This document shows positions 17,551 to 33,685 of a stretch of 64,000 bases of DNA, piece by piece. The notes beneath the pieces are model-generated. The model searched no databases and was not told the DNA's origin. It saw only the letters and a list, made by a program, of their open reading frames with translations. The DNA comes from Candidatus Uhrbacteria bacterium (GTDB taxonomy: Bacteria; Patescibacteriota; Patescibacteriia; UBA9934; GWF2-40-263), in the NCBI GenBank assembly GCA_016205975.1, contig JACQSK010000021.1, positions 106,593 to 170,592 of the forward strand, in the 5' to 3' direction. Positions within the stretch are counted from its first letter, which is position 1; the number at the start of each line of letters is the position of its first letter. A program made the translations under genes and the position numbers.

Positions 17551-18045
17551 ATGGACGGCGTTATGCAGCAAGGACGCATCATCATGGGGCTTGATCCTGG
17601 CTACGGGCGCATGGGGTTTGGCGTCATTTATGTTGAGGGGTCTGGGATGGAGCTCGTGGACTATGGGGTCATCACCACGGTGAGCGGGGACGCGTTTGAG
17701 AGCCGCCTGCTTCATATCGGCAACGACCTGCACGATCTGTTCGCCCATCACCTGCCTGACGCCGTGGCGATCGAAAAACTTTTTTTCGGGAAGAGCTCAT
17801 CGACCGCGATGAATGTCGCGCACGCGCGCGGCGTGGCGATGCTCATGGCGGCGCAAGCCGTGTGTCCCGTCTTTGAGTTCACACCAGCTCAGATCAAGAA
17901 GGCACTCACCGGCGACGGCAAGGCTCCCAAGCTCGCCATGCAAAAAATGGTGGCAACGCTCCTGAGTCTCCCCAAGATCCCCAAGCCCGACGACGCCGCC
18001 GACGCGCTCGCGGTTGCGATGACGGCGAGTACGAAGAGATGGTAA
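17551..18045 (+). CDS. ruvC: crossover junction endodeoxyribonuclease RuvC (Holliday junction resolvase)
   Basis: IIMGLDPGYGRMGFGVI, ELVDYGVITT and DAVAIEKLFFGKSSSTAMNVAHARGV are characteristic RuvC motifs. Length 164 aa. True start may be a downstream ATG. Confidence 0.7.
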   Translation: MDGVMQQGRIIMGLDPGYGRMGFGVIYVEGSGMELVDYGVITTVSGDAFESRLLHIGNDLHDLFAHHLPDAVAIEKLFFGKSSSTAMNVAHARGVAMLMAAQAVCPVFEFTPAQIKKALTGDGKAPKLAMQKMVATLLSLPKIPKPDDAADALAVAMTASTKRW

Positions 18046-18099
18046 AGGGCCTCAATGGAGGCCGAAACAAAAGACTCTGACTGACGCCAGAGTTTTTTG

Positions 18100-18189
18100 T
18101 GGAGCGGGTAGCGGGAGTCGAACCCTCTGGTAACCTCAATGATCTCCCAGGAAAGATCGCCGATTCCGCTCAACCTCGCGAAAACCCGC
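18100..18189 (-). tRNA. atypical tRNA-like element (about 90 nt, encoded CCA, discriminator U)
   Basis: Minus-strand RNA ends ...GAGGGUUCGACUCCCGCUACCCGCUCCA. 7-bp acceptor pairing of GCGGGUU with UACCCGC. Candidate anticodon hairpin GAUCU/AGAUC with an 8-nt loop. D-arm and variable region are non-canonical. Coordinates +/-2. Confidence 0.3.
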
Positions 18190-18358
18190 GGACCACCAGC
18201 GATCACCTAGGCCCTCCGATCCCCTCGAATAGCCATCCCTTGGGCAACACATGGGCAGCGGCCGGGGGCCGGTGCACACGCTGCGGGACACGCGAGAGCG
18301 GCCGCTCGGGCAGGGCGAAATCTCCGCGGTTCTTCGAGAGCGACAACAGTTCGCTCGC

Positions 18359-18745
18359 TCAATCCGGGTCAATGGCGTTTGCGGGCCTGCCCTCCTTCCC
18401 GCCGTCTTTCAGCATTCCGCGCTCGCGCAGCCACACCTGCGCCCTGGCCGGCTCGTCAGCGGGAGGTGGTTCCCCCTTGACCAGACGCTTCACTATCGGC
18501 CGAAGCACCTTCCACAGTTCAACGAATGCCCTCACCGTGTTAATGATCAGGAGTACCGTCTGAACGCTTTCGACGTCGTGAACTACATCCCGACGGCCGC
18601 GTCGAACTCGCTGTGGTGCATCTCCGGCTCCCTGAGCGCGTGGGGCGCTGCGTCGAACTGAGACCCTCACATCGCTGACTAGGTGCGCGGCATCGCGAAT
18701 CGCCGCGATATCGGTCTCCGGTACACTGTCTAGCTGAACCTGCAT
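18359..18745 (-). CDS. hypothetical protein
   Basis: AGGAAG RBS. Start overlaps the end of the upstream Cys-rich gene. Confidence 0.35.
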   Translation of the reverse strand: MQVQLDSVPETDIAAIRDAAHLVSDVRVSVRRSAPRAQGAGDAPQRVRRGRRDVVHDVESVQTVLLIINTVRAFVELWKVLRPIVKRLVKGEPPPADEPARAQVWLRERGMLKDGGKEGRPANAIDPD

Positions 18746-19074
18746 TTTGCTTCCTTCTGGTTGTCGGGGATCGAGAAGTCGACCCCGATTTGTGTGTTCG
18801 TGTCGTAGACCTTAATGCCTGAACGCAAGCGGAGGCACTCGGACAAGGTCGTGAGGATGTCCTGATACGAGTCCGCGTGCAAAATGACCATTGCGTCGTA
18901 GCTTCCCATGACTGCAACTACCGAGCAAAAACAGACATTCTTGCATGGGCACCCGTCCTTGTCGCAGCGCGATCCCGCCTTGCTCGCATACTCGTGCAGT
19001 AGGCGAAGTTGGTCGGTCAATTGAATGCCTGAATCGCTGAACTTCAGCTGCGTTACGGCGACAACTCTTGCCAC
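18730..19074 (-). CDS. small Cys-rich protein (CDKDGCPCKNVCFC)
   Basis: GTG start 9 nt after an AGGAGGAG RBS. Lower-GC stretch. Confidence 0.4.
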   Translation of the reverse strand: MARVVAVTQLKFSDSGIQLTDQLRLLHEYASKAGSRCDKDGCPCKNVCFCSVVAVMGSYDAMVILHADSYQDILTTLSECLRLRSGIKVYDTNTQIGVDFSIPDNQKEAKCRFS

Positions 19075-19096
19075 AACGATACTCCTCCTACGTTCC

Positions 19097-20578
19097 CTAC
19101 CACGCGGATGCGAGCATTGCAACTCGGTACCGTAGTCGAATGTCATCAAGCGTTCGTCCGGTGCCCGGAGCGCCGACGTGCTCCCATTCGGACAACCACA
19201 TCGCATTGAGGACGTCCTCGACGGCTGCCTCACGCCCTGGCACTTCGCCGCTTTCGATTCGGCGACGAAGCCGGTCCCACTCACTTTCCGCCCTTGCACC
19301 ATCGAATGTGAACCCAGCGAATACGCGACCCCCTGCTGCCTCAGCGATGATCCGCGCTACACCCTTCACCTCATCTCGCTGTGTCGAGAAGTAGTCATCA
19401 AATACAGAGATGACTCGTTTCCAGGCCCTGGCGCCGGCCACGCGCTGTTGGACGTCATGTGCCCGTTCGTTGCCAAACCGTGCCAAGCACTCCCCAATCA
19501 TTTTTGAAACTCGCTCGTATCCACTGGAATCAGCTAACGTTTTTAGCAAGATAAGGCGCACATCGGGCGCTGGATGTTCCTGGGCGTGGGGGTCCTGCTC
19601 GTAGCGTTCCATCTCCGCCATCAAAGCGTAAGGGTAGGCCGGACCCATGACCATGAACGCACCGAAGTCGGCTAGCAACTCAATTGCCTGAGCGGCGATA
19701 TCAGCATGTACCTGCTCCGCGCTCTCCCCCCGCACAGGGGGATAGCATCCCCGGACCGCCAAGTAGAACGCCGTGGCCGCTCGAATCAAGTCTTGAGTGA
19801 GGCGAGGCAACAGGCTGCGCATTCCGCGCCATAGATGCTGACGTTGTCCAGCGCCCGCGCCTAGTCGCGGTTCTGCAAGGAGTAAGACGCGGTGCCACTG
19901 CTCGTGCGCCGACATGGCCGCATACCGCAATGTTGCAGGAACGAATCGTGGGTGGGTAACGTACGAGAGGTTCAGGTAGGTGGCGAGTTCCTTCATGCCC
20001 TTTTTGAGTTCCCATTCCCGTCTTCCGGTACGCGCGTATACCTCGTAGATGGGCTCGATGAGGCCGTAGAAGGACTCGGCGCATTCCAACGAGTACCGGA
20101 CCCCGCCCGATACCGCAGTCACCGGAACGCCGACCTCCAGGTTGCCGTAGAATGGCGCGAGACGCCGGTGGGTCGCGTCGACCACGCGTTCGACGCAACG
20201 AATCGCGTGTGGACCGATCGGATGGATGTCCCCCAGGCTCAACCTCCAGGGATCCTGCATCGAGTGGAATTCCCCGCGACCGGTTCGGCGTCCCTGCAGA
20301 TATGCACTCACGAATAGCTGGTTCCGTTCCTGTAGGCTCAGAATCCAGCGACGTAGGCGATCCCGATCCGTACCCGCGTCCCTGCTTGCCCTTTCCAGTC
20401 GTCGCGCTACTTCGGACATCGACCGGACGAAGAACCACTGCGGTGATCGGTACCCTGCCGAGGTCCGGCGAGCAACGGCCTCGATTTGGGCTCGCGTCGC
20501 TTCCACTTCGTGACACAGATATCGGAGCTGTTCATCGGTCGCAACGGCGCGTTCCCTCAGGGCCAGAATAGGGAGCAT
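19097..20578 (-). CDS. hypothetical protein (494 aa)
   Basis: Internal Met MLPILALRE with an AGAGGG RBS. The upstream part of the ORF is RBS-less. Confidence 0.45.
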   Translation of the reverse strand: MLPILALRERAVATDEQLRYLCHEVEATRAQIEAVARRTSAGYRSPQWFFVRSMSEVARRLERASRDAGTDRDRLRRWILSLQERNQLFVSAYLQGRRTGRGEFHSMQDPWRLSLGDIHPIGPHAIRCVERVVDATHRRLAPFYGNLEVGVPVTAVSGGVRYSLECAESFYGLIEPIYEVYARTGRREWELKKGMKELATYLNLSYVTHPRFVPATLRYAAMSAHEQWHRVLLLAEPRLGAGAGQRQHLWRGMRSLLPRLTQDLIRAATAFYLAVRGCYPPVRGESAEQVHADIAAQAIELLADFGAFMVMGPAYPYALMAEMERYEQDPHAQEHPAPDVRLILLKTLADSSGYERVSKMIGECLARFGNERAHDVQQRVAGARAWKRVISVFDDYFSTQRDEVKGVARIIAEAAGGRVFAGFTFDGARAESEWDRLRRRIESGEVPGREAAVEDVLNAMWLSEWEHVGAPGTGRTLDDIRLRYRVAMLASAW

Positions 20579-21363
20579 CTTGGCCCTCTTGCGCGCGCGT
20601 GGGTGAACGGTTACTATACTAAGGCATGGGCGTTCTGTCAAGCCACCGCCGGTTCACGCCGTACAATGAGGTACGTTGGCGCGCAATCGTGATGGTCCTG
20701 TCATTCAGACGACTTACGTACCAGGCGATGATGGAGGGCAGATGACCCCGAAGAAAGCTGCTGCGCATCGCAAGAAGGCGGCCTCGCTAGTTGATCGTCA
20801 CGGTCGTCGTTTTCGAGGGGAAAAGAACTTCAAACGGCGTACGGATGCCCTTCCTGAACACGTGGATCCCTGGGGTGTGCACAGCAACAGGGAGACGCAA
20901 GCGGTCCCCCGCCGTCGAGCAGCGAAGCCTGCCGAGCGCGAGGAACCCGGCAAGGAGAAGTGAGCAAGGCGAGCAGTGCTTTGGGTGCTCGTGGACCAGA
21001 CGTGCATGGGCACGGTTTGACACTCCACAAGGCATGGAGGGGAGTCGATTGCGCGAATCAGGCGCCGGATGAGATGGTGCGCTGACCCCGTCGAGGTCTA
21101 CGACGCGATCACCCGCGGCGCGTTCCCGCCGAACCCGTCCTGGATGTGCCCCCGGTGCGAGTACCGGCGGGCGTGCAGGGGCGCGATCGCGATGAAAGCT
21201 GCGGCGTGAACGAAAACGACCCACTCCCGGGACGCGGGGGTGGGTTTTCGATTCAGAAGAGGTGCGTGTTTCACCGGTGAAACAGGAGTACCTGCATCCG
21301 GCGGAGGCGGCACGCATGCCTGGTGACGGGCCTCTCCCCCGGCTTACGCCATCCACCGCGACC

Positions 21364-21855
21364 CTACCCCCCGGCCAGGCTCCACGCGATCCCGACGACG
21401 ACCGGGATCGCGACCACGCCGACGATGACCAGCACCCCCTTGGCGTCCAGCTCGCGAGGCGGGTCGGCGTCGTTCCCCACCTGCGGCACGCCCGGCCGGT
21501 ACGTGACGAGGCCCCCGTCGTGCACGATCGTTCCCGGCCGCTCCACCCGTCGGCGCTCGAAGATGAGCGTCTCGCCCGCCTGGGGCGCGTACAGGAACAG
21601 GGTCACGAGCAGGCACACCAGGGCGAGCAGGTGGAACAGGATGCCGGTCTTGGCCGGCAGCACGTGGGCGAGCCGGTACCCCTTCTCGTTGTACCGCGCG
21701 ATGGTCGTCTCGAGCTTGCGCCGCTGGAGGCCGCCGGTCATCGCCCCGACGAGCCCGCCGGCGTAGCTGAGCGTCGCCACCCGCGACTCGACGGGGACGG
21801 GGACCTCGGCAGGTCCAGGGCTCGAGGATGGCAAGCTCGGCGTGGGCGTGTCCAT
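21364..21855 (-). CDS. hypothetical membrane protein
   Basis: Start at MDTPTPS. One TM helix (ILFHLLALVCLLVTLFLY). Confidence 0.35.
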   Translation of the reverse strand: MDTPTPSLPSSSPGPAEVPVPVESRVATLSYAGGLVGAMTGGLQRRKLETTIARYNEKGYRLAHVLPAKTGILFHLLALVCLLVTLFLYAPQAGETLIFERRRVERPGTIVHDGGLVTYRPGVPQVGNDADPPRELDAKGVLVIVGVVAIPVVVGIAWSLAGG

Positions 21856-21908
21856 GGTGTTCTCCGGGGTCAGGTTTGTTCGCGCGGGGTGGCGGGCGCG
21901 CCGCGCTA

Positions 21909-23180
21909 CTACTCGTCGCCAGGTCGCGCGCGGATTCCCGTTGCCTTGTTCGCGTCGCGATCGAACGGCTTGGGCACCCAGGAGGTGAGGATGCCGTTGG
22001 TCACGACGAAGGTGCCCACCGTGGCATCGATCGTGGTCGTGATCTCGCGCTCCGTGATGGCGGTGCGGACCTCCGCGCCCGACTCTGGCCATGCCCAGCG
22101 CACGAGCGGCTCCGGAAGGCCGGTTGCGAGATCACCTGCGGCGAGGTGATCGCGGACGTCGATCTTGCCCGCGTCGTGGCTCCACTCAATCGCTTCGGCT
22201 GGGGAGTCGACGTCGGCGGTGGGAACCAGCCAGAGCGAGTCCAGCGATACGCGCCTCACGAGGGTCTGCTTTCGCCTGAAGCTCACCTTGCAGGTGTTGC
22301 TCGTGTAGCTGCCGGCCACGCACCGAATGCCGCCGGTGTCCACCCCTGACAGCGATACCACGGGCGGATTCTCCAGAAAGTAGTACGGCCGCGAGCGAAC
22401 CGTCCCGGCCCTGGGCGGCGCGTTGAGCGAGCCGCCGACGCACCAGCGCCCCGGACACCAGTCCCGGTATACCCAGCCCGACACGGCTTCGAAGACTGGG
22501 TTGAAGACGTCGACGAAGGTGCCGTAGCCGCTATCGTCCCTGCCGGTCAACTTGCCGCCGCTGAACGGGGGCAGGCCCCCCGAGGGGGTATCGGCGTCCA
22601 GCGGCAGGACATGTGCCCCGCCGGCTCGCACCACGAAGCGCATTCGCTCCGCGACCGGGGAGGCGGCGAAGATGGGATGAGCAGCCCACGGTCCGACCTG
22701 CCCGTCCCACGTCCGGAGTCCCCCAACCAGGAGATCGTCGCCCACCGCGGAAAGGGCCGCGAACTCGGAGCAGCAAGTCCATGCCGCCTCGGCCGCCTTC
22801 TGCGCCGCCTCGCGATCGCTCGAGATCAGCGTGAGCGACCGCTTCGCCAGGACCAGGCCCTGGTCCTCGTCACCGAGCTTGAGGGCGCCGTCATAGGCCC
22901 GGGCCGCTGCCGCGAACAACGCCTCGGGCTCCTTGTTCTCCGCGCTCGCGTCGTTCGAGGCGAGGCCGGCTTGGAGCCGGATGTCGCCGAGCGCGATGTA
23001 TGCGTCGCGCAACTCGGGGTCCGCGGTGATGAGCCCCTCCAGCTTCTTCACTGCGAGGTCGACCTGCGCGTTCTCGGCGAGTTGACGAGCGGCAGCGATC
23101 TCTCGACCGCTACCGCCGCACGCAGCGGGGAGCGCGAGCGCCGGAATCGCGGTCGCGACCCACCACGTACTCGGGTTCAT
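21909..23180 (-). CDS. secreted protein with TPR-like N-terminal helices
   Basis: Signal peptide MNPSTWWVATAIPALALPAAC. The upstream part of the ORF is junk. Confidence 0.4.
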   Translation of the reverse strand: MNPSTWWVATAIPALALPAACGGSGREIAAARQLAENAQVDLAVKKLEGLITADPELRDAYIALGDIRLQAGLASNDASAENKEPEALFAAAARAYDGALKLGDEDQGLVLAKRSLTLISSDREAAQKAAEAAWTCCSEFAALSAVGDDLLVGGLRTWDGQVGPWAAHPIFAASPVAERMRFVVRAGGAHVLPLDADTPSGGLPPFSGGKLTGRDDSGYGTFVDVFNPVFEAVSGWVYRDWCPGRWCVGGSLNAPPRAGTVRSRPYYFLENPPVVSLSGVDTGGIRCVAGSYTSNTCKVSFRRKQTLVRRVSLDSLWLVPTADVDSPAEAIEWSHDAGKIDVRDHLAAGDLATGLPEPLVRWAWPESGAEVRTAITEREITTTIDATVGTFVVTNGILTSWVPKPFDRDANKATGIRARPGDE

Positions 23181-23187
23181 GGAGCGC

Positions 23188-23697
23188 CTAATCACAGAAC
23201 CAGTCCATCCCGCCCTCGGAGACGCGGAGACCGCTCTCGCCGGGGGCGATGGTGAAGTGCACGATAGCTTCCATGCAGCTACACCCATCGACCTTGCAGT
23301 CGGCGTAAACCTTGTAGGTGGTCTTGGTGCCGGACGTCGTAGGCTTCCACTGCCCGAGCGTACCGAGCTTGAGATCGTCGGGAAAGCAGAAGGAGGTATC
23401 CCGGCCGCGAAACCGTGCGCGGTATTCGTCGGTGCTGGCGAGCGGCTTGCCTCCACATGAAAACGGGAATTGAATCAGGTCAAGCGTGCGCGGCTCGTCC
23501 TTCGCGTCGAATGCGGCGACGAAGGCCATCCACACGCCGCCAACAGTCGTGGGTCGGGGAGGCGTCGTGGTTGGACTCGGTGCGGCTGCGGTCAGGGCAG
23601 GCGGCGTCGCCGGGGCGTCCGCCATCGCCACCGGTGCGATCGCCAACACGGCCACCAAGCCGAGTAACGCGATTCGCGTCAGTTTCACGTCGGTCAT
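23188..23697 (-). CDS. secreted Cys-containing protein
   Basis: GGAGAG RBS plus ATG. Signal peptide MTDVKLTRIALLGLVAVLAIAPVAMA. Confidence 0.45.
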   Translation of the reverse strand: MTDVKLTRIALLGLVAVLAIAPVAMADAPATPPALTAAAPSPTTTPPRPTTVGGVWMAFVAAFDAKDEPRTLDLIQFPFSCGGKPLASTDEYRARFRGRDTSFCFPDDLKLGTLGQWKPTTSGTKTTYKVYADCKVDGCSCMEAIVHFTIAPGESGLRVSEGGMDWFCD

Positions 23698-23838
23698 CGG
23701 TCTCTCCATTCGAGGGTTGTCCACACCCCCCGGCCTTGCCGACGCGAGCCCGTGCCGTACCCTGGAGGGCAGCGGCACGAACCGGGGGCGACATCGCCAG
23801 GAAGGTTCGTCCAAGCGTAGGTAGGGCGAAGCGCGCGG

Positions 23839-24261
23839 TCAAGACGACCGGGCGTCTTTTTTCGACCGAGGAGGCCCAGGATCCGCCGGCACGGGGCTCG
23901 CCGACTCGTCGAAGCCCGGCGTTCCTGGCCAGGATTCGTCGACCGGGCGAGCCGAGGCGAGCGGGCGCGCGGCGCGTTCTCCGGGAGCGGCTTCGGCGAC
24001 CTGGTCGCGGTTCATCACCCGGGCGCGCAGGCGCACGAGGTAGCGGTCGAGTCCCGTGAGCCAGTGATCCAGCGCGTCGAGCTGCCGCAGCACCTCGCTC
24101 GCGGGCAGCTCCTCCACGCGCGGGTCCGTGGCGTCGGGGTCGTGCGCGAGCAGGTCGGAGATGGCGTCCCGGATCGCGATGAGATCGGAGAGCGGCGTCG
24201 ATGGGGACGTGGGCAGGGGAACCTCCGGTGGGGGTCGGTCACCCGGGTCGTGGAGGATCAA
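23839..24261 (-). CDS. hypothetical protein
   Basis: ORF with an acidic, helical composition. Weak evidence. Confidence 0.25.
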   Translation of the reverse strand: MILHDPGDRPPPEVPLPTSPSTPLSDLIAIRDAISDLLAHDPDATDPRVEELPASEVLRQLDALDHWLTGLDRYLVRLRARVMNRDQVAEAAPGERAARPLASARPVDESWPGTPGFDESASPVPADPGPPRSKKDARSS

Positions 24262-24322
24262 GGTAGCGGTTGGGCTTCCCGCGTGCCATCGGCAGGGCGT
24301 CGAGATGGCCGTACCGACCGGG

Positions 24323-25255
24323 CTACGCCCCCATCCGCGCCGAGAGCCACGGTAGCCGCCCGATGGCGTCCCGGAGCAGCGCCTCGTCCCCGTGCAGGTA
24401 GCGGGCGGTAGTGGCGAGCGAGGCGTGGTTCAAGGACTGCCGGATGATCTCGGTCGCCACCCCGACGCGCAAGAGCGCCGTCGCGTGCGCGTGGCGCAAG
24501 AGGTGGGGATGGAGGCGCACCGCGAGGCCGGCCCTTTCCCCGAGCCGCGCGAGCCGGAGCTGGATGGCCCGGGTCGTGAGCCGGTAAACGACCGGCGAGC
24601 TGGCTGCCGACGTGAATCCGCGCGGATTTACACGGCTCGGGAACAGCGACCCGTCGTCCCGGCCCCGGACCTCGATCCACGCGCGCACGACCTCCGCGGC
24701 GCACGGGTGGAGGACCACGTCGGTCCGGCCCCCGCCCTTGCGGGTGGCGCCCCGCAGGTGGCCGGTCGCGAAGTCGACCTGGGCAACGTCAAGACCGGCC
24801 AGCTCGGCGACGCGCAGGCCGGTGTAGAAGAAGAGGAGGAGGATCGTGGTGTCCCGGGCCCGTCGCCAGGACGGGGCTTCCGACGCGAGCACCCCGAGCA
24901 ACCGCTCGACGTCGGCGACGCCCGGGGCGGCGATCACGGACCTGGGCACCCGGGCGCGGGAGATCCCCGTGGTGGGGTCCGCGGCGAGCACCCGCTCGCG
25001 CACGAGCCACGCGCACAGCCCGCGGACGATCACCAGCCGGCGGTTGCGGGTGGACGGCGCGAGCAGCGTCCCGTCCGCCTGGCGGGTGACGAACGCGGCG
25101 AGGGCCTCCGGTTCGAGGGGAATGGCGCGACGCACGAGGAGCCCCAGCTCCTCGCGGTAGCCGGCGACGGTGGTCTCCCCCAGCCGCCGGTCGTCGGCGA
25201 GGTGGCGCAGGTAGCGGGCGAGCAGGTCGAGAGTGAGAAGGACGGGGGTAGGCAT
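24323..25255 (-). CDS. tyrosine recombinase, XerC/XerD-like
   Basis: N-terminal SAM-like domain (TTVAGYREEL). C-terminal catalytic region HLLRHAHATALL ... LGHASLATTARYLH with the conserved R/H/R/Y pattern. 310 aa. Confidence 0.7.
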   Translation of the reverse strand: MPTPVLLTLDLLARYLRHLADDRRLGETTVAGYREELGLLVRRAIPLEPEALAAFVTRQADGTLLAPSTRNRRLVIVRGLCAWLVRERVLAADPTTGISRARVPRSVIAAPGVADVERLLGVLASEAPSWRRARDTTILLLFFYTGLRVAELAGLDVAQVDFATGHLRGATRKGGGRTDVVLHPCAAEVVRAWIEVRGRDDGSLFPSRVNPRGFTSAASSPVVYRLTTRAIQLRLARLGERAGLAVRLHPHLLRHAHATALLRVGVATEIIRQSLNHASLATTARYLHGDEALLRDAIGRLPWLSARMGA

Positions 25256-25618
25256 GGTGGGCGGCACGTCTTTCAAGGGGATCGGAACTTCGCAAAACCT
25301 ACGCGAGGGCGAAAAGAGGAGGTCCCCGTGCTGGGACCTCTCGTTGGCGTTCCGGTCTTCTGGGGTTGCTCCGCTTCCTGGCCGACGGTGGCCGCGACCG
25401 GATGCTCCTATGCTCGCGGTGTGCACAGGATGCGCGGGCTGCCTTGCTCCCGTCTGACCTGACGCCGCCGGCGAGGAGGCCGCCCGACGGGATAGCGTCG
25501 TCGGCGGGGAGTGGCGAGCCCCGTTCAACGCGCGCCCCGCACGTCACCCGTCTGCAGGACGGACGGGTTGTCGGCGCCGATGGTCTTCCACTTCTGATAC
25601 TCTCTTGCGTGAGAGGAT

Positions 25619-26938
25619 GTGATGCATACGGCGAGACGAATCCCCATTCCCCTCGCCATTTTCGCGCTCGGACAAGGCTGCGCGACGGAGTTGTGCGCGG
25701 AGGACTCGCCGAACGGCGAGCAGTGCCAGAATGGAGGAACAGAGCCGGATGCCGGGGAGAGCCCGGGCAAAGAAGATTCGGGGGACACCGGGGAGACCGC
25801 CGACAGCGGCGAACCGTGCCCGGCCGACGATTGGCCCTGCCAGGTCGTGCCCCTTTCCGGCGCGCAGGCCCAGCTCATCGGCGAGTTTCCGGGCGACTAC
25901 GCCGGATTCGCACTGGCCATCCTCGACGACCGGGTGTTCGTCGGGGCGCGGCGAGAAGGGACGTTAGCCGTTTTCGTTTCGCCCCCCGTCCCGGCCGGAC
26001 GAACGCTCCTCTCGGACCCACTCGTCCTGGAGGGTGACGTGCTGAGCGGCGGCATCGAAGTGCTGGGCGGGGACGAGGTCGTTCTGTCTTCGGCGTATAC
26101 GACCTGGGTGGTCGATTCCCTCACCCTCTCCACCGCTGAAGCGCGCCTGTGGACCAGCACGGTCGGGGATTATGGAACCGGCGACCTGACGGGGGACGGG
26201 TTCCCCGACCTCGTCGTTGGCCTTTCCCACGTTGACGTAGTGGATGGGCTGCGGACGGGTGATGCATCCAACCCGGATGCGCGGATCTCCGGCGTAGGCT
26301 ATCGCATCATCGTGCCGGGCGACGGGGACGGGGACGGAGTCGACGACGTGGTAGCCATGGACGAGTATAGAGAACTCGCGTACCTCTTCCGCGGCCCGTT
26401 CGCTGGCGAAGTTGATGCATCAGCCAGCGATGCTCGGTGGGGTAGCGAGTTCGACATGAGCTGGATCGAGCCCGTGGGTGACATCGATGGGGATGGGCTC
26501 CCGGAGATGTCGATCTTTTCGTACGGGCAGGGGGACAACGAATGGATCCCTCTCATCCTCCCGCTGCGCGAGGACGGGACGCCCTCCCTGGGTGATGCAC
26601 TTGCCAAGATCGTGAACGACGTACCCGGCGTCGGCTTGGCGAACGCGAAACGCGCGGGCGATGTCGACGGCGACGGGCGCGGCGACCTCGTCGTCGAAGG
26701 CTGGGTGCCCTCCGAGCGCGGCAACGTCCGCTCGGTGCTCTTCTATGGCCCGATCGAGGGCAGCGTCTCCCTCGCAGACAACGGCCAAGCCATCCTCCGC
26801 GAGGACGATGATGCGGCCGAGGGCGAAACCCGGAGCGGCGACATCGACGCCGACGGCCTGTCGGACCTGGTATTCGGGATCGGGGATTCGGAAGAGGGTG
26901 CCGGCTCCGCGTACGTGCTGTACGGTGGAGCTTTCTGA
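25619..26938 (+). CDS. FG-GAP repeat lipoprotein
   Basis: Signal peptide ending ...LGQGC. Repeated D.DGDG..D and FG..GAP-like segments (GDVDGDGRGDLVV, GDIDADGLSDLVFG, YVLYGG). Confidence 0.6.
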   Translation: MMHTARRIPIPLAIFALGQGCATELCAEDSPNGEQCQNGGTEPDAGESPGKEDSGDTGETADSGEPCPADDWPCQVVPLSGAQAQLIGEFPGDYAGFALAILDDRVFVGARREGTLAVFVSPPVPAGRTLLSDPLVLEGDVLSGGIEVLGGDEVVLSSAYTTWVVDSLTLSTAEARLWTSTVGDYGTGDLTGDGFPDLVVGLSHVDVVDGLRTGDASNPDARISGVGYRIIVPGDGDGDGVDDVVAMDEYRELAYLFRGPFAGEVDASASDARWGSEFDMSWIEPVGDIDGDGLPEMSIFSYGQGDNEWIPLILPLREDGTPSLGDALAKIVNDVPGVGLANAKRAGDVDGDGRGDLVVEGWVPSERGNVRSVLFYGPIEGSVSLADNGQAILREDDDAAEGETRSGDIDADGLSDLVFGIGDSEEGAGSAYVLYGGAF

Positions 26939-26950
26939 GCGACCGAGGAT

Positions 26951-28111
26951 CTACGGCAGATCCACAACCCAGTCCACCCTCATCTGGCCCTTCCCGTTCT
27001 CGGTCCAACACGTGATGATGTACCCCTCCCACGCTTGCGTGTGCGGGCGGTTCGCCTGTCCCGAGGACGTGAGGGCTTCAGGTTCTGACCATAGAGGTTG
27101 CCAGTCCGAATCGAACAACTGACGCATGATGTCGCCAGCGTCATTCTTCTCGTCCTCCGGCCGCACCTCGAACTGCCGATACGTCACGAGGAAACAGTTC
27201 CCGATTTGGACCACCGTTGGCATGGCCAGGTTGCAGTCACTTTTTTCGATGAGTACCTCGGCAGACCTGATCCCCGCAGACGTCATGGAATCGTCGACCA
27301 CGACACGTGCGATGGTGCTCTCTTGGGATGGCACCATGCTCGTCGGGGCAAGGATACAAATCTCCGAGTACCTCGACTGGAGAAACGCAGATGCTCCGTT
27401 CTTGTGCCTCGAATCCCTGACATACGTAGAGTCAGTGACGTCTCCCCACTCATACAACGCTCCGCGGAGCGTGACATGGATCAGCCGGGTCCCGCTGTGC
27501 GTTCCAGGGGCCAGCACCCCAACGATCACTCCACCATAGAAGGGGTCGTTCAACGCATGAACCAAGAAGTGGTCGTTGGTCCCCGTGACCCGCTCGAAGA
27601 AATCGGCGCCTGAGTAGGACAACTCCATGGCGTCCTCCATGCCCGGGATCACATCGATTTCGTCCTCGACCGTGAACGTCTCGCTCGCCTCGTCGAAGGT
27701 GACCTGGAGAACGGAGAGGGATTCGTTGCCTTCGCCATCGTCGGGCCCATAGGAGTACGATAGCCAGTGATACTGCGTCAATGGTGAGACGATGTGCCAA
27801 TGGTCTACGACTCGACCGGACGTCGAGAGCGAATGCCACGAGATACTCGTCATCTCACTGGAATCGATTGGATCAACGACCGCCAACTTCAGCGTTCCAC
27901 CCTGGCTGGTCGACAGGATGACTCGCGCGCCGCTGCCGTACCCGCGCGCAAACAACCACTCCGCGGTCCCGTCGATGTCGGCGTGTTGGACTACCTTGTA
28001 TAGGTGCGGCTCCCAGAGATGGTTCGTTGCCTCTCTCACCCCCTCCATCAACTCCTCCCACCACGCCTCCACGTAGGCAGTCAACCACGTCGATATATTA
28101 TTGAACCACAT
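26951..28111 (-). CDS. hypothetical protein (lower-GC islet)
   Basis: 386-aa ORF with non-biased composition. Local GC about 55%. Confidence 0.4.
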   Translation of the reverse strand: MWFNNISTWLTAYVEAWWEELMEGVREATNHLWEPHLYKVVQHADIDGTAEWLFARGYGSGARVILSTSQGGTLKLAVVDPIDSSEMTSISWHSLSTSGRVVDHWHIVSPLTQYHWLSYSYGPDDGEGNESLSVLQVTFDEASETFTVEDEIDVIPGMEDAMELSYSGADFFERVTGTNDHFLVHALNDPFYGGVIVGVLAPGTHSGTRLIHVTLRGALYEWGDVTDSTYVRDSRHKNGASAFLQSRYSEICILAPTSMVPSQESTIARVVVDDSMTSAGIRSAEVLIEKSDCNLAMPTVVQIGNCFLVTYRQFEVRPEDEKNDAGDIMRQLFDSDWQPLWSEPEALTSSGQANRPHTQAWEGYIITCWTENGKGQMRVDWVVDLP

Positions 28112-28266
28112 GCTCCAACAAGCCCCGCAACAACAGCGTTAGACAGCGCAGTCCCGTCCGAGACAGAGATTTGACTAGGTCGCCTGCCCGCTTCTTCTCG
28201 ACTGGCAGGTGGTACCGGTATCATGGTACCGACGTTGCGCGCCGGCCCCAGCCCGCTACGGCTCGA

Positions 28267-28683
28267 CTACCCGCAATCCTCCCACTCGACGACACCCGAG
28301 ACGCGGGCGCACTTCAGCGATGCGGCGCTTGCCTTGAAATAGAATCCGAAACGAATGAGCTGCTTCCCGGCCGTGCTCCCGGCAAGCCCCGTCATCCCCT
28401 GCGGAAAGCTCACGCCATTGCCCGTCTTGTCGTTGCGCGTCGGATCGGCGCCGCCGCTTGGAAAGATGGTGGTCGTCGGGCTGTCCGGCACGTCCGCGGT
28501 CTCGAACGCAGGGTACACGATGCCGTTGGAGTCGGTCGTGTTGCGTACCTCGAACGTGATCCGGGCCAACTGGACATCAGGGGCGGGCCCCCAAGCCGTG
28601 CAGGGATTGAACTCTCCAGTCCCGGTCTCGAGATCGCTGAAGATGGTGGTCCAGGGAATGACGATCTTGCGAAGGCGGGCCAT
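28267..28683 (-). CDS. hypothetical protein
   Basis: 138-aa ORF, protein-like. Confidence 0.3.
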   Translation of the reverse strand: MARLRKIVIPWTTIFSDLETGTGEFNPCTAWGPAPDVQLARITFEVRNTTDSNGIVYPAFETADVPDSPTTTIFPSGGADPTRNDKTGNGVSFPQGMTGLAGSTAGKQLIRFGFYFKASAASLKCARVSGVVEWEDCG

Positions 28684-29951
28684 GTGTAACTCCTAGTCCG
28701 TTGGTTGAGTAGGTACGCTGTCGGGCCGAACCCGACCCAGGTTGTCAGCGCAGTGGTCCATCCATTCCATCCTTGTACCGGATGCCCATGCGCACGAAGC
28801 GCTTTTCGCTGGTGAACTCCGAGAAACGCTGCGGGTCGATTTCCGTCGGCTTCTTCCAGGGTCCACCCACACCCGTGCGGCTGAGCAGGATGCCGACGTG
28901 GACCTCCAGGCGGTCATCGGTGTCCAGGTCGGGTCGCATCGGGACCAGGAAGTGCATCCGCGGCGCGCGCGGCAGCTCCACCGAGGAGCGTGACAGCCAC
29001 TCCGCAAGCGGCACGAACCTCGTGGCTGGCGGCGCGGCGTGGGCGGGCGATCGATGCTCGCCATTGCCGGACAGTCGCTTGGCCATGGAATCCTCCCGCG
29101 AGGCGGCCCGGAACTCGGGGCGCCTGAGCGACCCTTGCACTGTGCGCGAGCGACTCCCGGCGGGTCAATGGCCGCCGCGAAAAAACCTGCCGCAACGGCG
29201 GGAGGTCCCCGCTGGTACCCCGATGGGCACGCGATCGTAGACGAGTAAAAAAGTTTTCGCGACGGGTGATCCGGGCGCGCTCGGGCCGTGCTGGCTGCCG
29301 TCCAATTCACGATCGAAATCGCCGGGTGCGGGTCGGGACGGTCGTGCCGGCGCCACATCCCCGGCGCAGCGAGCAGGAGCTTTCCGAGCATCTTGCACTG
29401 CACGAGCCGCACGGTCACGCTCGGGAAGTCCGACGGGTAGAGCGGCACCTGGTCCTTGTTCGTGAACTCGACCTTCACCGAGTCCTCGACCCGGGTGGTC
29501 CCCGTCCCGGACTTCAAGTGCGTCTCGATCTCGAGGCTCCGCCTGCCCGGGGCTAGCCTCGCGCGCGCGCGCGAAGAGAGAAGTGTGTCAACGGTATTGG
29601 CGAACAGTCTCCCGTCGATGCCGCCTCCTGGGGCGCGGTCGACGCTTCCCATGACGACAGCGAACACCGTCGGCTCGGCGGCGAGGATCTCGGGCTTGTC
29701 GTTGCGCCCCCGCGTCGGTGTCGTGCAGTGCGCCACCTCCGGGCCGGCGTCGAGCCGCACGGCTCATCCACGCCCAGCGCGGACGAGTGCACGCCGGGAA
29801 TCGCGTCCGGCGAGCAGCCGCGAAAGCCGTGCGCGCCCGGGAGCCGCTCGCATCGGCAAAATAAAGTTCGTGGGCCGCGAGACATTTGTCCTTCTGCGCA
29901 CCCTTCCTCAGTGAGCGACCTGGCATTTCGCGCGGCGCTCCGGAGCCCACG

Positions 29952-30716
29952 ATGGCCGAGAGCCCCACCGAGACCATGCTGCATCCCCCAGGACGTCACG
30001 CCAGCCTGCCGCCCGTGACCGCCACGCTCCCCGGCGAACGCAACCTTGCGCCCGAGCGCCTCGACCACCTCGCGAAGCGGATCCGTGAGCTGTGCGCCGG
30101 GGCGGGTCTCTCGAACGCCCGCCCGCTTGGGGAGTTCCTCGTCGAGGAGCTCTTCGACGGGGACGAGGAGGCGTTCTACGCCAACCCGTCCGGCCACGCC
30201 GCGTTCCGAGAACTCGCCAAGCGTCCCGACGTCCCGGTCTCGGGCCCGCACCTCGCCGCGTCCGTCGCGGTGCTCCGGCAGCTGCGCGAACTCCCGGCGG
30301 ATCTTGCCGAGGCACTCTCCTTCGAACACCACCGCGTGCTCCTCACCGTCCGCGACCTCGAGAAGAAGATCGCACTGGCCCGCATCGCGTGCGAGGAAGG
30401 GCTCAAGTGTCGGGCGTTCCGGCTGCGCGTGCGCGACGCGCGCGAGCCGCGCCGGGGCATGGTGCCTGGGCGCCCGCCGACCCCCGCCCTCCTGCGCATC
30501 GTCCACGACATCGAGACGCTCGCGTCGAAGTACGCAGAGCTAGCCCGGGGGGAAGAGGCGGCCGCCAAGGCGCTCGGCGCGGAGGGCGTGAAGGTGCTCG
30601 CCCGGCGTGTCGACAAGGTGATCACGACGCTCGACGACGCGAACGACGACCTGGGCGGCCATGTGGGCCTCGAACCGGGCTTCGCCGGCCGCGACGAGAT
30701 CCGCACGGAGTTGTGA
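29952..30716 (+). CDS. hypothetical protein
   Basis: ATG start MAESPTE. Helical, charged composition. The stop lies inside a 17-bp palindrome. Confidence 0.45.
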   Translation: MAESPTETMLHPPGRHASLPPVTATLPGERNLAPERLDHLAKRIRELCAGAGLSNARPLGEFLVEELFDGDEEAFYANPSGHAAFRELAKRPDVPVSGPHLAASVAVLRQLRELPADLAEALSFEHHRVLLTVRDLEKKIALARIACEEGLKCRAFRLRVRDAREPRRGMVPGRPPTPALLRIVHDIETLASKYAELARGEEAAAKALGAEGVKVLARRVDKVITTLDDANDDLGGHVGLEPGFAGRDEIRTEL

Positions 30717-30726
30717 CAGTCACAAC
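30710..30726. promoter_or_regulatory. 17-bp palindrome gttgtgacagtcacaac
   Basis: Perfect inverted repeat overlapping the stop of the upstream gene. Candidate operator. Confidence 0.4.
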
Positions 30727-30886
30727 TGTCCGGAAAACGGCAAGGCCGCCTTTCCATGCCCGTCAAGTCCACCCCACGAGTCCCCGGCACCCCGGCAGAG
30801 TCGACCGCGCCACCACGGTGCGGTATCGAGCTGGTCGACGTGCGCGAGGCCGAGGCCGGCGAAGCGTCGGCGGCGACACCGTGACC

Positions 30887-30902
30887 GTTATCACGTGATA
30901 AC
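30887..30902. promoter_or_regulatory. 16-bp perfect palindrome gttatcacgtgataac
   Basis: Read directly from the sequence. Confidence 0.4.
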
Positions 30903-30967
30903 ACCCGGCCTCGCGAGGGCCGGCGAGGGCACCGACGACCGCTGCGCGCGTGGTCGACCGGCAGCTA

Positions 30968-30983
30968 GTTGACGCGCGTCAAC
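30968..30983. promoter_or_regulatory. 16-bp perfect palindrome gttgacgcgcgtcaac
   Basis: Read directly. The 14-mer gctagttgacgcgc recurs at 33661-33674. Confidence 0.4.
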
Positions 30984-31439
30984 ATGACACGTCAAGACTT
31001 CGCCCTGGCGAGCCGGGGCCTGCGCGCGGATTTCGTAAGCGAGATGACCTCGGTCGCTCGGAAGGACATCAACCGTCTCGACGAGGCACTCGATGACGCC
31101 CGCAGCCACGCCGGCGTCGCTCTCGTCGACGGTGACAACGCGGCCGACGAGGCATGAACGTTACGGCGGCGGAACGTTTCCCCGGGGAAACGTTCGCCGC
31201 CTGCACCCTCGGCCGATCGGCCCCCGGCCGACACGCCGCTCGCCCGGCTGGTCGCCGACTTCGAGAAGATCACCGAGCGCTTCGCCTGCCTCGCGAAGGA
31301 CGCGGATGGCGCAACCGCGCTCGGGCGGGACGAGGTCCAGGGGCTCATCGGTCGCGTCTACCCGTACGCGGCCAAGGTCGAGGAAGCGATCGACGACATC
31401 GGGCTGCACGTCGGGATCGATGACGTCCGCGGGGAGAGC

Positions 31440-31494
31440 TAGCCGTCTTGTTTAGCCGGCTAAACAAGACGGCTACCGTCACGCGAGGCGTGAC
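31440..31494. terminator. 36-bp perfect palindrome (tagccgtcttgtttagcc|ggctaaacaagacggcta) plus adjacent 7-bp-stem hairpin
   Basis: Read directly. Lies between the interrupted small gene and the PilZ gene. Likely a bidirectional terminator or operator. Confidence 0.45.
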
Positions 31495-31577
31495 CGCGTC
31501 GTGCATGCGCGGTCCCTCGCGTCCTGCCCGGTCCAGTTGACACGCCCGCGACCACCCCGCCTCCAGGATCACCCGCC

Positions 31578-32309: not shown

Positions 32310-32322
32310 GCGGCGTTCCCAC

Positions 32323-32700
32323 GTGGCCTCCGATAGACTGCGCGGCCCGATGTCCTCCCCCCGTGCGTTGCTGTTCATCGACCTCCGGCTGCCAGCGGCG
32401 TTCGTCCTGGACGAGCCGGCGTTCCTCCGGGTGAACGACGGGGTGCTCGTCGTGGACGGAATCTCGGCGGTCGAGGCGCGCCGAGTCGCGGCGCAGCTCG
32501 TCTACGACGGGGCGCGCGCCCACGTGGCGCTACCCGCGCCGGGGACCACGCCCGACACCCCCGGTCACCCGCACCCGGCCGGGACGCTCGTGCACGTCCC
32601 GGGAGACGGAGCGGGTTGGGGCGCGGAGCTGCCACGACTCGTGGCGGCGAGGGTCGGCTCCCGCGCCGCGGCCGGGAAACCGCGCGGCGTCCCGGGGTAG
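32323..32700 (+). CDS. hypothetical protein
   Basis: Short ORF immediately after the PilZ gene. Weak evidence. Confidence 0.25.
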   Translation: MASDRLRGPMSSPRALLFIDLRLPAAFVLDEPAFLRVNDGVLVVDGISAVEARRVAAQLVYDGARAHVALPAPGTTPDTPGHPHPAGTLVHVPGDGAGWGAELPRLVAARVGSRAAAGKPRGVPG

Positions 32701-32749
32701 CGTCGAGATCCCGGGACGTTCCGCTGGCCCGTCCGCTACCGAGCGGTAC

Positions 32750-33487: not shown

Positions 33488-33685
33488 GATCGAGGCTCCG
33501 GGGATGAGCTCGGTCGTATGCCACCGGGTTTCGCATGACAACGGGTCCGGTCCCCCGGATCGCGGCGACAGCGGCCCTGCGTGCCGGGAGGGCCCCGGGA
33601 GTGTGCGACCGGGAGCGACGCGGCCAACGAAAACAACAGGACCCTCCGGCCCTGTCTTTTGCTAGTTGACGCGCCTGGGCGTCTT

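What the first reader, a model, noticed from the sequence alone, without database searches (positions are those of the whole stretch)
18100..18189. Atypical ~90-nt tRNA-like element with encoded CCA, U discriminator and 8-nt putative anticodon loop
The minus strand encodes a GGGUUCGACUCCC T-loop, a 7-bp acceptor stem (one U.U) and a terminal CCA. The D-region and variable region are oversized and the best anticodon hairpin has an 8-membered loop (UUCCUGGG). It could be a degenerate att-site tRNA copy, a phage-encoded unusual tRNA, or a tRNA-like structural RNA. It lies between ruvC and a minus-strand operon, followed by T-runs. I considered and rejected tmRNA (no tag-reading-frame or 5' tRNA-like partner found).
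Basis: seen in the sequence. Interest (0 to 1): 0.5.

Follow-up and report, generated by a model that had tools for sequence, protein, structure and literature searches.

The report
Leftover tRNA-Gly end at insertion scar
The "odd tRNA" is the junction left when a large mobile DNA element inserted into a normal glycine tRNA gene: only its last 26 bases are real tRNA, so it is an ordinary integration scar.

Summary
It is not a tRNA gene.

- **No model support.** No Rfam family reaches threshold. The best tRNA-clan hit is 15.8 bits, against 54-72 bits for genuine tRNAs scored here.
- **What relatives carry.** In related Candidatus Uhrbacteria genomes, the gene convergent with ruvC is a canonical tRNA-Gly(UCC) preceded by tRNA-Pro(UGG).
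- **An empty-site allele exists.** A metagenome contig of the same organism is 100% identical to the window from 16046 to 18125. It then diverges exactly at 18125/18126 into that canonical tRNA-Gly/tRNA-Pro pair.

So 18100-18125 is the displaced 3' end of the host tRNA-Gly gene, and everything from 18126 onward is inserted DNA. The insert is over 55 kb, up to 75% GC, and carries a tyrosine recombinase plus mobile-element and defence genes.

The supposed 5' acceptor strand and D arm lie in a 111-nt terminal block. A related Patescibacteria element has the same block, but there it abuts the 3' end of a different tRNA (initiator tRNA-Met type).

Verdict: an attR-type hybrid junction and a known phenomenon. 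The far end of the element was not found.

The parts
18100..18125 (-). Displaced 3' end of the host tRNA-Gly(UCC) gene, running from the last 3 bp of the T stem through the T loop, acceptor 3' strand, discriminator U and CCA. Sequence GGGTTCGACTCCCGCTACCCGCTCCA. This is the att core at the attR-type junction.
   Evidence: It is identical to the 3' end of the canonical 75-nt tRNA-Gly(UCC) in the empty-site contig L005. Identity stops exactly at 18125/18126. L005's tRNA scores 61.4 bits with RF00005.
18126..18157 (-). Element-specific spacer.
   Evidence: It differs completely from the empty allele and from the equivalent spacer of the related element L145. It has no significant similarity to tRNA-Gly, tRNA-Pro or tRNA-fMet.
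18158..18268 (-). Conserved 111-nt terminal block of an integrative-element family. Its 3' part (18158-18190) is a hairpin, CGCgGGUUUuCGC-GAGGUUGA-GCGgAAUCgGCG. That hairpin supplies the apparent 'acceptor 5' strand' and 'D arm'.
   Evidence: It is 87% identical to L145 17357-17467, the best-conserved DNA between the two elements; coding regions are 74-79% identical. The consensus fold pairs 18190-18158 with one G:C to A:U compensatory change. Substitutions show no 3-base periodicity, by my own count on alignment A3.
18064..18093 (-). Original terminator of the host tRNA operon (hairpin ACTCTG..CAGAGT plus T-run). The same hairpin read on the + strand, with a U-run, lies just after ruvC.
   Evidence: The terminator scan finds it. 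The + strand hairpin plus U6 is visible in the alignment. It is identical in empty and occupied alleles. Analogous hairpins follow tRNA-Gly in relatives.
17551..18045 (+). Host ruvC. The gene as called on public contigs is 153 aa, which puts its start at 17584. It is convergent with the tRNA-Gly gene.
   Evidence: Pfam RuvC, E = 2.8e-44. It is 70-88% identical to Candidatus Uhrbacteria/Patescibacteria RuvC. The ruvC-tRNA-Gly(UCC) adjacency is seen in L007-L009, L010-L013 and L016.
24323..25255 (-). Tyrosine recombinase/integrase (310 aa, XerC/D-like). It lies 6.1 kb inside the insert and is the candidate enzyme for the integration.
   Evidence: Pfam Phage_integrase 1.2e-28 plus the SAM-like N domain. 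PHROG integrase 4e-37. The exact protein is on record as a tyrosine-type recombinase of Candidatus Uhrbacteria bacterium. L145 shows the same layout: integrase, then ~6.5 kb, then the block, then a tRNA 3' end.
18126..64000 (.). Inserted mobile DNA, which continues beyond the window end. GC content rises from 60% to 75%.
   Evidence: GC profile. Independent Logan contigs L002/L141 and L140 cross the junction at 100% identity. L143 extends 9.5 kb past 64000 and carries Replic_Relax, RadC, PDDEXK and Mrr genes. It has no tRNA and no second core copy.

Best explanation
The 90-nt 'tRNA-like element' is a hybrid recombination junction (attR type). It was created when a large integrative element inserted by site-specific recombination into the T-arm/3' end of the host's tRNA-Gly(UCC) gene.

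Shown:
- The host is a ~59% GC Candidatus Uhrbacteria (Patescibacteria) bacterium. It normally has tRNA-Pro(UGG), then tRNA-Gly(UCC), then a terminator, convergent with ruvC.
- In the window, only the last 26 nt of tRNA-Gly plus the terminator remain next to ruvC. Everything 5' of base 18125 is element DNA.
- Empty and occupied alleles of the same organism both exist in metagenomes.
- The element carries a tyrosine recombinase.
- The element ends in a conserved 111-nt block that a related element places next to a different tRNA's 3' end.

Inferred:
- The recombinase at 24323-25255 catalysed attP x attB exchange within the 26-nt identity.
- The element brought its own copy of these 26 nt, so an intact tRNA-Gly survives at the unseen far junction.
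- The conserved block is part of the element's att arm.
- The 6/7 acceptor-like complementarity (GCGGGTT) and the hairpins that let ARAGORN draw a cloverleaf are fortuitous or at most relics, and the hybrid has no tRNA function.
For: 1. **Synteny.** Canonical tRNA-Gly(UCC) lies immediately downstream of, and convergent with, ruvC in relatives with 78-87% RuvC identity.
2. **Empty site.** L005 is 100% identical to window 16046-18125. It then diverges into a canonical 75-nt tRNA-Gly(UCC) plus tRNA-Pro(UGG). These score 61.4 and 39.9 bits with RF00005. L006 shows the same allele.
3. **The occupied junction is reproducible.** It appears in independent assemblies L001, L002/L141, L004 and L140. L140 ends at 18096, which is 18126 minus 30. 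That is where a k=31 assembly would break if both alleles coexist. This step is my inference and rests on my recollection that Logan contigs use k=31.
4. **The insert looks mobile.**
   - A tyrosine recombinase lies inside it.
   - Its GC content and gene content are foreign or mobile in type.
5. **A related element.** L145 (integrase 62% identical) has the same architecture. Its conserved block is followed by GGTTCAAATCCGGCCCCCGCAAC, which is identical to that stretch of E. coli initiator tRNA-Met as I recall it. GC then drops to host level.
6. **No tRNA model support.** Nothing passes the Rfam gathering score. The best clan hit is 15.8 bits. Genuine 82-90-nt tRNA-Gly(UCC) with long variable arms score 54-62 bits.
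7. **No tRNA sequence in the element side.** The element-side 64 nt has no significant similarity to tRNA-Gly, tRNA-Pro or tRNA-fMet.
Against: - The other junction was not found. It should carry an intact tRNA-Gly, a second copy of the 26-mer, and tRNA-Pro. It is absent from the window and from 9.5 kb beyond it. The element's size and the direct repeat are therefore unverified.
- The recombinase is 6 kb from the junction and is XerC/D-like rather than a classical arm-binding phage integrase. Its role is inferred.
- ARAGORN accepts only 0.15% of random 5' sequences joined to this 3' end. The element end is thus somewhat more tRNA-like than random DNA, which leaves room for an old tRNA-derived attP.
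- An insert of 70-75% GC in a 59% GC CPR host is unusual.
Confidence: 0.9

Rival explanations
1. The element encodes a functional atypical tRNA or tRNA-like RNA. The mobile element would carry a 5' two-thirds which, joined to an identical or host-derived T arm and acceptor 3' strand, gives a chargeable glycine-type acceptor. This could be a frameshift-type tRNA with an 8-nt loop, or a non-ribosomal tRNA mimic.
For: - The acceptor has G1-C72, C2-G71, G3-C70, U73 and CCA. From my own knowledge, these are tRNA-Gly identity elements.
- The T loop is intact and a terminator follows directly.
- ARAGORN calls it, and such a call is rare by chance at 0.15%.
- The 5' part lies in a conserved block that keeps a hairpin through a compensatory change.
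Against: - The best tRNA-clan score is 15.8 bits, against a gathering score of 29 for tRNA (RF00005); that hit is to tRNA-Sec, whose own cutoff is 47.
- No canonical anticodon arm can be drawn, and the fold is no better than shuffles.
- In the homologous element L145 the corresponding 5' strand is GCGAGTT. It pairs poorly with the adjacent tRNA-fMet-type 3' strand, and no tRNA is called.
- The conserved block folds on itself, using the would-be acceptor strand.
- The spacer holding the '8-nt anticodon loop' is not conserved.
- No other copy was found:
  - none among the 120 stretches the truncated metagenome scan returned;
  - none in species-representative genomes;
  - none in viral contigs.
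Confidence: 0.05
2. The element is an in-situ tRNA pseudogene: the host tRNA-Gly(UCC) decayed through point mutations and small insertions.
For: It occupies the syntenic position of tRNA-Gly(UCC). It has mismatches (U7.U66 and A.G in the T stem) and 14 extra nucleotides.
Against: - Divergence from the canonical allele of the same organism is not scattered. The 3' 26 nt and flank are 100% identical, and similarity is lost abruptly at one base.
- The DNA 5' of the break continues into more than 55 kb of unrelated sequence instead of tRNA-Pro.
- That 5' DNA is homologous to another mobile element's end.
Confidence: 0.02
3. The junction is an assembly chimera that joins a CPR contig to a high-GC organism at a shared tRNA-like k-mer.
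For: - There is a strong GC contrast, 59% against 70-75%.
- MopE, FG-GAP and caspase genes are unusual for CPR bacteria.
- Contigs tend to break at the 26-mer.
Against: - At least four independent Logan assemblies from different runs cross the junction identically: L001, L002/L141, L004 and L140.
- GC just inside the insert is still ~60% and rises gradually.
- A second Patescibacteria contig (L145/L146, assembled by ENA and by JGI) shows the same high-GC element joined to a lower-GC host at a tRNA 3' end.
Confidence: 0.03

Closest known systems
att-site tRNA fragments (attL/attR direct repeats) of genomic islands and prophages that integrate into the 3' part of tRNA genes. Examples from my own knowledge: P4 in leuX, mycobacteriophage L5 in tRNA-Gly, and the T-loop and anticodon-loop sublocation classes described by Reiter et al. 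1989 and Williams 2002. I did not read these papers here.
   Same: - A partial 3' tRNA sequence, starting in the T arm, abuts foreign DNA.
- The native terminator and flanking gene are retained.
- A tyrosine recombinase lies in the insert.
- An empty-site allele has an intact tRNA.
- Composition shifts across the junction.
   Different: - The second repeat and the intact tRNA at the other end were not seen.
- The recombinase is XerC/D-like and 6 kb from the junction.
- The host is a candidate-phyla-radiation bacterium, and the insert is unusually GC-rich and large (over 55 kb).
- The element end carries a conserved 111-nt block shared with an element that targets a different tRNA.
Canonical bacterial tRNA-Gly(UCC)
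   Same: The last 26 nt are identical to the host's own tRNA-Gly(UCC). The glycine-type acceptor end CCCGC-U-CCA is present, and the genomic position next to ruvC is the same.
   Different: Positions 1-64 are unrelated to tRNA. There is no 7-nt anticodon loop in a proper arm. The covariance score is at most 15.8 bits, against 61-72 bits for real ones.
Class-II-like tRNA-Gly(UCC) with long variable arms (80-90 nt), found here in metagenomic tRNA arrays
   Same: Similar overall length (up to 90 nt), and the same acceptor and T arm consensus.
   Different: Those keep a canonical D arm and anticodon arm (loop CUUCCAA). Their extra bases form a variable arm, and they score 54-62 bits with RF00005. 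The window element does none of this.
tmRNA and tRNA-Sec
   Same: A tRNA-like 3' end with a GGTTCGA-type T loop, and a length of about 90 nt (for tRNA-Sec).
   Different: - No tmRNA is called by ARAGORN or Rfam.
- There is no G3.U70/A73 end.
- tRNA-Sec scores 15.8 bits against a 47-bit gathering score, and there is no UCA anticodon.

Membership tests
tRNA (Rfam RF00005 / canonical cloverleaf) | Covariance-model score at or above the gathering score of 29 bits | tested here: not met
   There is no hit at gathering in the window. The best tRNA-clan hit in permissive mode is 15.8 bits. True tRNAs in related loci score 54-72 bits.
tRNA (Rfam RF00005 / canonical cloverleaf) | A 5-bp anticodon stem with a 7-nt loop, at the canonical distance from the D and T arms | tested here: not met
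   ARAGORN's drawing needs a mismatched stem and a 24-nt mispaired extra arm. The only good hairpin has an 8-nt loop. It is separated from the D-like stem by 8 nt and from the T stem by 13 nt.
tRNA (Rfam RF00005 / canonical cloverleaf) | Conservation of the gene in related genomes | tested here: not met
   Relatives, and an allele of the same organism, carry a canonical 74-76-nt tRNA-Gly(UCC) at this spot. No other copy of the 90-nt form was found in the part of the metagenome scan that was returned, nor in the genome scan.
att junction of a tRNA-targeting integrative element | Exact identity to the 3' end of a tRNA gene that stops abruptly at a breakpoint | tested here: met
   The window and L005 are identical through 18125 and unrelated from 18126 onward.
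att junction of a tRNA-targeting integrative element | An unoccupied site with an intact tRNA exists in the same or closely related genomes | tested here: met
   L005 and L006 are 100% identical on the flank and carry a canonical tRNA-Gly(UCC) plus tRNA-Pro. L016, L007 and L012 are the relatives.
att junction of a tRNA-targeting integrative element | A site-specific recombinase encoded in the inserted DNA | tested here: met
   A tyrosine recombinase lies at 24323-25255. The related element L145 has the homologous integrase at the same distance and orientation from its tRNA-derived end.
att junction of a tRNA-targeting integrative element | A second copy of the core (direct repeat) within an intact tRNA at the other end of the insert | tested here: inconclusive
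   There is no copy with up to 8 mismatches in 18126-64000, nor up to 6 mismatches in the 9.5 kb beyond. No tRNA is present there either. The rest of the 197.6-kb source contig could not be read.
att junction of a tRNA-targeting integrative element | The insert differs from the host in composition and carries mobile-element genes | tested here: met
   GC is 59% on the host flank against up to 75% in the insert. The extension L143, just past the window end, carries Replic_Relax, RadC, Mrr and PDDEXK; ThiF and JAB lie in the insert at 54.9-57.7 kb (L144).
tmRNA | tRNA-Ala-like acceptor (G3.U70, A73), tag reading frame and pseudoknots | tested here: not met
   ARAGORN's tmRNA mode finds nothing even at a lowered threshold. 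There is no Rfam tmRNA hit. The acceptor is G3-C70 with U73.
tRNA-Sec / allo-tRNA | 8/5 or 9/4 acceptor/T-stem geometry, a long variable arm, a UCA anticodon, and a model score of at least 47 bits | tested here: not met
   The score is 15.8 bits with many non-canonical pairs, and no UCA lies in a loop.

The most novel reading that the evidence does not exclude
The conserved 111-nt terminal block, with its hairpin at 18158-18190, plus a target-specific ~32-nt spacer, may be a functional module of a so-far undescribed family of large, GC-rich integrative elements of Patescibacteria.

It could be a structured att arm or a non-coding RNA that helps retarget the same recombinase family to different tRNA genes (tRNA-Gly here, initiator tRNA-Met in L145). 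The hybrid tRNA-like 3' end might also be transcribed from the element's last operon and processed by tRNA enzymes.
Probability: 0.07. Interest if true: 0.5.

Novelty: new member of a known kind. Interest (0 to 1): 0.18.

Why it matters
For annotation, this ARAGORN call should not be recorded as a tRNA-Arg or tRNA-like gene. It marks one boundary of a mobile element.

Beyond that, the value is modest. It documents a polymorphic insertion of over 55 kb at tRNA-Gly in a small-genome CPR bacterium. A related element sits at another tRNA. Together they offer a handle on horizontal gene transfer in Patescibacteria, but the mechanism is the textbook one.

Tried and rejected
- **tmRNA, standard or permuted.** ARAGORN's tmRNA mode and Rfam are both negative.
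- **tRNA-Sec or allo-tRNA.** The score is 15.8 bits only.
- **Short intron or extended anticodon arm in a functional tRNA-Gly.** I considered this from my own parse of an outer AAUC/GGUU helix around the inner hairpin. I dropped it once the empty allele showed that bases 1-64 are not tRNA.
- **Fusion of the tRNA-Gly and tRNA-Pro anticodon loops (UUUCC+UGGGA).** This is a coincidence, because the spacer is element DNA.
- **Element-side DNA as a decayed tRNA-Gly, tRNA-Pro or tRNA-fMet copy.** Alignment-versus-shuffle tests were not significant, p = 0.11-0.92.
- **Search for other copies of the 90-nt form.**
  - The metagenome pattern scan was truncated at 120 stretches. It returned canonical or long-arm tRNA-Gly, att scars and group II intron insertions, but no relative.
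  - The genome scan returned one unrelated Actinomycetales att scar.
  - Viral contigs, phage and plasmid collections were all negative.
- **Relatives of the 514-aa neighbour in species genomes.** None were found.
- **Integrase relatives in viral contigs.** Only hits at 30-49% identity over partial matches, so uninformative.
- **The far junction.** It was not reached.

Full report
**Observation.** The minus strand of 18100-18189 reads GCGGGTTTTCGCGAGGTTGAGCGGAATCGGCGATCTTTCCTGGGAGATCATTGAGGTTACCAGAGGGTTCGACTCCCGCTACCCGCTCCA.
- the T loop;
- a 7-position acceptor helix with one U.U;
- discriminator U and an encoded CCA;
- a 5-bp hairpin with the 8-nt loop TTCCTGGG;
- a hairpin plus T-run terminator immediately downstream;
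- ruvC beyond it.

ARAGORN calls exactly these coordinates as a 90-nt 'tRNA-Arg(gcg)'. Its drawing has a mismatched anticodon stem and a long, poorly paired extra arm.

Covariance models disagree. No Rfam family reaches its gathering score anywhere in the window. In permissive mode the only tRNA-clan match is tRNA-Sec at 15.8 bits, E = 4.6. The minimum-energy fold is no better than shuffled sequence, z = -0.34.

**Whose gene is next door.** The RuvC protein is 70-88% identical to RuvC of Candidatus Uhrbacteria and other Patescibacteria, and an identical protein occurs on ten public contigs. I fetched contigs around RuvC homologues. ARAGORN shows that in L007-L009, L012-L013 and L016 the gene immediately downstream of ruvC, and convergent with it, is a canonical 74-76-nt tRNA-Gly(UCC). 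In L010-L011 it is also downstream but on the same strand as ruvC. It is usually accompanied by tRNA-Pro(UGG), and where convergent it is followed by a hairpin/T-run terminator. The window element sits at that syntenic position and shares the glycine-type end CCCGC-U-CCA.

**The decisive comparison.** Six Logan contigs carry the identical RuvC. BLAST against the window gives two groups.
- L001, L002, L003 and L004 are collinear with the window.
- L005 (run SRR4343430) matches window 16046-18125 at 100% and then stops matching.

Read on the tRNA strand, L005 continues upstream of the shared GGGTTCGACTCCCGCTACCCGCTCCA as ...GCGGGTATCGTATAGCGGTTATTATCTCAGTTTTCCAAACTGATGATGC. This is a perfect 75-nt tRNA-Gly(UCC) (ARAGORN; RF00005 61.4 bits). 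Upstream of it lies the 3' part of tRNA-Pro(UGG) (39.9 bits, cut by the contig end). L006 also shows the canonical 'TGC' before the shared 26-mer. The alignment places the breakpoint exactly between 18125 and 18126.

Two alleles of one organism therefore exist.
- The empty site has the intact tRNA-Pro/tRNA-Gly operon.
- The occupied site (the window) keeps only the last 26 nt of tRNA-Gly and its terminator next to ruvC. Everything from 18126 onward is other DNA.

The occupied junction is not an assembly accident. L001, L002/L141, L004 and L140 come from different sequencing runs and cross it identically. L140 ends at 18096, which is 30 bases after the first allele-specific base. A k=31 graph would break there if both alleles were present in that sample. 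This is my inference, from my recollection of how Logan contigs are built.

**What the inserted DNA is.**
- **Composition.** GC is ~59% on the ruvC side. It rises from 60% to 70-75% inside the insert.
- **Recombinase.** The insert encodes a tyrosine recombinase at 24323-25255. The exact protein is recorded as a tyrosine-type recombinase of a Candidatus Uhrbacteria MAG with a 197.6-kb contig.
- **Other genes in the window.** MopE/FG-GAP and caspase-domain proteins, a DUF7946/7947 protein and a ThiF/JAB cluster.
- **Beyond the window end (L143).** Replic_Relax, HTH, RadC, a protein kinase, PDDEXK and Mrr genes.
- **The far end.** Neither the window nor the 9.5 kb beyond it contains another tRNA or another copy of the 26-mer. 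The insert is therefore over 55 kb and its far junction was not reached.

**The 5' two-thirds of the 'tRNA' is a conserved element end, not tRNA.** The integrase homologue P0122 (62% identical) lies on a Patescibacteria contig assembled independently by ENA and JGI (L145/L146). That contig has the same layout.
- About 6.5 kb downstream of the integrase, on the same strand, is a 111-nt stretch 87% identical to window 18158-18268. It is the best-conserved DNA between the two elements; their coding regions are 74-79% identical.
- About 32 unrelated nucleotides follow.
- Next comes GGTTCAAATCCGGCCCCCGCAAC. From my own knowledge, this is identical to the T arm and acceptor 3' strand of E. coli initiator tRNA-Met.
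- After that, GC falls from 0.66 to 0.55 and ordinary tRNA genes follow.

The block thus belongs to an element family whose members sit at different tRNA genes.

The block's last 33 nt (18158-18190) contain what ARAGORN used as acceptor 5' strand and D arm. In a consensus fold they pair with each other: CGCgGGUUUuCGC, loop GAGGUUGA, GCGgAAUCgGCG. One G:C to A:U double change separates the two elements. In L145 the would-be acceptor strand is GCGAGTT, it pairs poorly with the neighbouring 3' strand, and no tRNA is called. The spacer holding the '8-nt anticodon loop' is not conserved at all.

Alignment-versus-shuffle tests find no significant similarity between the element-side 64 nt, or the whole block, and tRNA-Gly, tRNA-Pro or tRNA-fMet, p = 0.11-0.92.

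**How much is chance.** I joined 4000 random 120-nt pieces of the insert to the fixed 3' end.
- 5.5% offered an acceptor complement of at least 6/7 Watson-Crick pairs at a total length of 70-95 nt.
- 0.15% were called tRNA by ARAGORN.

The cloverleaf-like look is uncommon but not extraordinary for a GC-rich sequence placed in front of a genuine T arm and acceptor strand. The finding was also selected because it looked like a tRNA.

**Mechanism.**
- **Shown:**
  - the breakpoint inside the T stem;
  - empty and occupied alleles;
  - a recombinase in the insert;
  - a family-specific conserved end.
- **Inferred:**
  - A tyrosine recombinase exchanged strands between the element's attP and the host attB within the shared 26 nt. 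The T arm's own inverted symmetry is the usual kind of target, from my own knowledge of tRNA-gene integration sites.
  - The element's copy of the 26 nt restored tRNA-Gly at the unseen junction.
  - The displaced original 3' end stayed with its terminator next to ruvC.
  - The hybrid has lost the operon promoter. It can only be transcribed by read-through from the element's last genes (493-, 114- and 128-aa ORFs on the same strand).
  - I expect the hybrid to have no tRNA function.

**Comparison with the known.** This is the classical signature of integration into the 3' part of a tRNA gene. Of the five defining features, four were tested and met: abrupt end of identity, empty site, recombinase, and foreign composition and genes. 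The fifth, a direct repeat with an intact tRNA at the other end, could not be reached. Membership in tRNA, tmRNA or tRNA-Sec was tested and failed.

By contrast, genuine oversize tRNA-Gly(UCC) genes of 80-90 nt with a long variable arm turned up in the metagenome pattern scan. Four of them (82-90 nt) were scored, and they reach 54-62 bits with the tRNA model.

**Novelty and score.** The phenomenon is well known. What is new is only the instance: an apparently uncharacterised, large, GC-rich integrative element family in Patescibacteria with a conserved 111-nt terminal block. I score interest at 0.18.

The most novel reading still open is that the block, spacer and core form a functional RNA or DNA targeting module, or that the hybrid is expressed. 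I give that about 7%.

Noticed in passing
window 46757-46803 (+), terminator hairpin to ~46860: A second tRNA-gene scar: the 3' half of a tRNA-Pro(CGG)-like gene, from the anticodon loop TTCGGGA to ACCA. It is preceded by AT-rich unrelated DNA and followed by a hairpin/T-run. No intact tRNA-Pro is in the window. It suggests nested or successive insertions inside the GC-rich insert.
   Followed up: partly
window 15150-17498 (+): A ThiF-type E1-like protein (284 aa), then a ThiS/ubiquitin-like protein ending in Gly-Gly (97 aa), then a 375-aa protein with no Pfam hit. They lie directly upstream of ruvC on the host side and look like a bacterial ubiquitin-like conjugation or defence operon. Relatives have rpoB-rpoC(-yebC) there instead.
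   Followed up: no
window ~54875-57667 (-), seen via L144 genes: A second ThiF (416 aa) cluster inside the insert, with small proteins and a Prok-JAB deubiquitinase-like protein. It is another Ubl/E1/JAB-type system. Elsewhere in or just beyond the insert lie Mrr, PDDEXK, RadC and DUF7946/7947 genes, so the cargo has a defence-island flavour.
   Followed up: no
window 18158-18268 (-); L145 17357-17467 (+): A 111-nt non-coding block, 87% identical between two elements whose integrases are only 62% identical. It has a hairpin supported by one compensatory change. It has no match in Rfam, viral contigs, phages or plasmids. It may be an att arm or a small RNA.
   Followed up: partly
window 22000-60000: Inserted DNA reaches 70-76% GC and encodes MopE copper-binding repeats, FG-GAP/PKD proteins and a caspase-domain protein. 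This is unusual content and composition for a ~59% GC Uhrbacteria genome. L145 shows the same pattern (0.66-0.72 GC against 0.55).
   Followed up: partly
window ~31444-31479: A perfect 36-nt palindrome, TAGCCGTCTTGTTTAGCCGGCTAAACAAGACGGCTA. Two independent Logan contigs (L140, L142) both end inside it.
   Followed up: no
window 21090-21249 (+) and L143 8058-8216 (about 1.4 kb beyond the window end): A 161-nt repeat at 89% identity, in inverted orientation relative to the window, about 44 kb apart.
   Followed up: no
L116 3636-3725, L072, L053, L030 and about 25 other metagenome loci: tRNA-Gly(UCC) genes of 80-90 nt with a canonical anticodon arm and a 9-18-nt hairpin-forming variable arm; the four scored (82-90 nt) reach 54-62 bits with RF00005. 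Several sit in dense tRNA arrays. From my own knowledge, tRNA-Gly is normally a short-variable-loop tRNA.
   Followed up: partly
L032 1155-1267, L088 6237-6348, L104 (matches to Intron_gpII): The 3' end of a group II intron (domains V/VI) lies directly in front of the T arm of a tRNA-Gly gene in three metagenome contigs. These are group II introns inserted in tRNA-Gly genes.
   Followed up: partly
L145 ~3700-3760 (-): A tmRNA-type 3' end (…GGGTTCGACTCCCGCCGCCTCCACCA) with no tmRNA called, about 1.2 kb from a second integrase (L145 1397-2500). It is probably another integration scar, at ssrA, in the same Patescibacteria contig.
   Followed up: no
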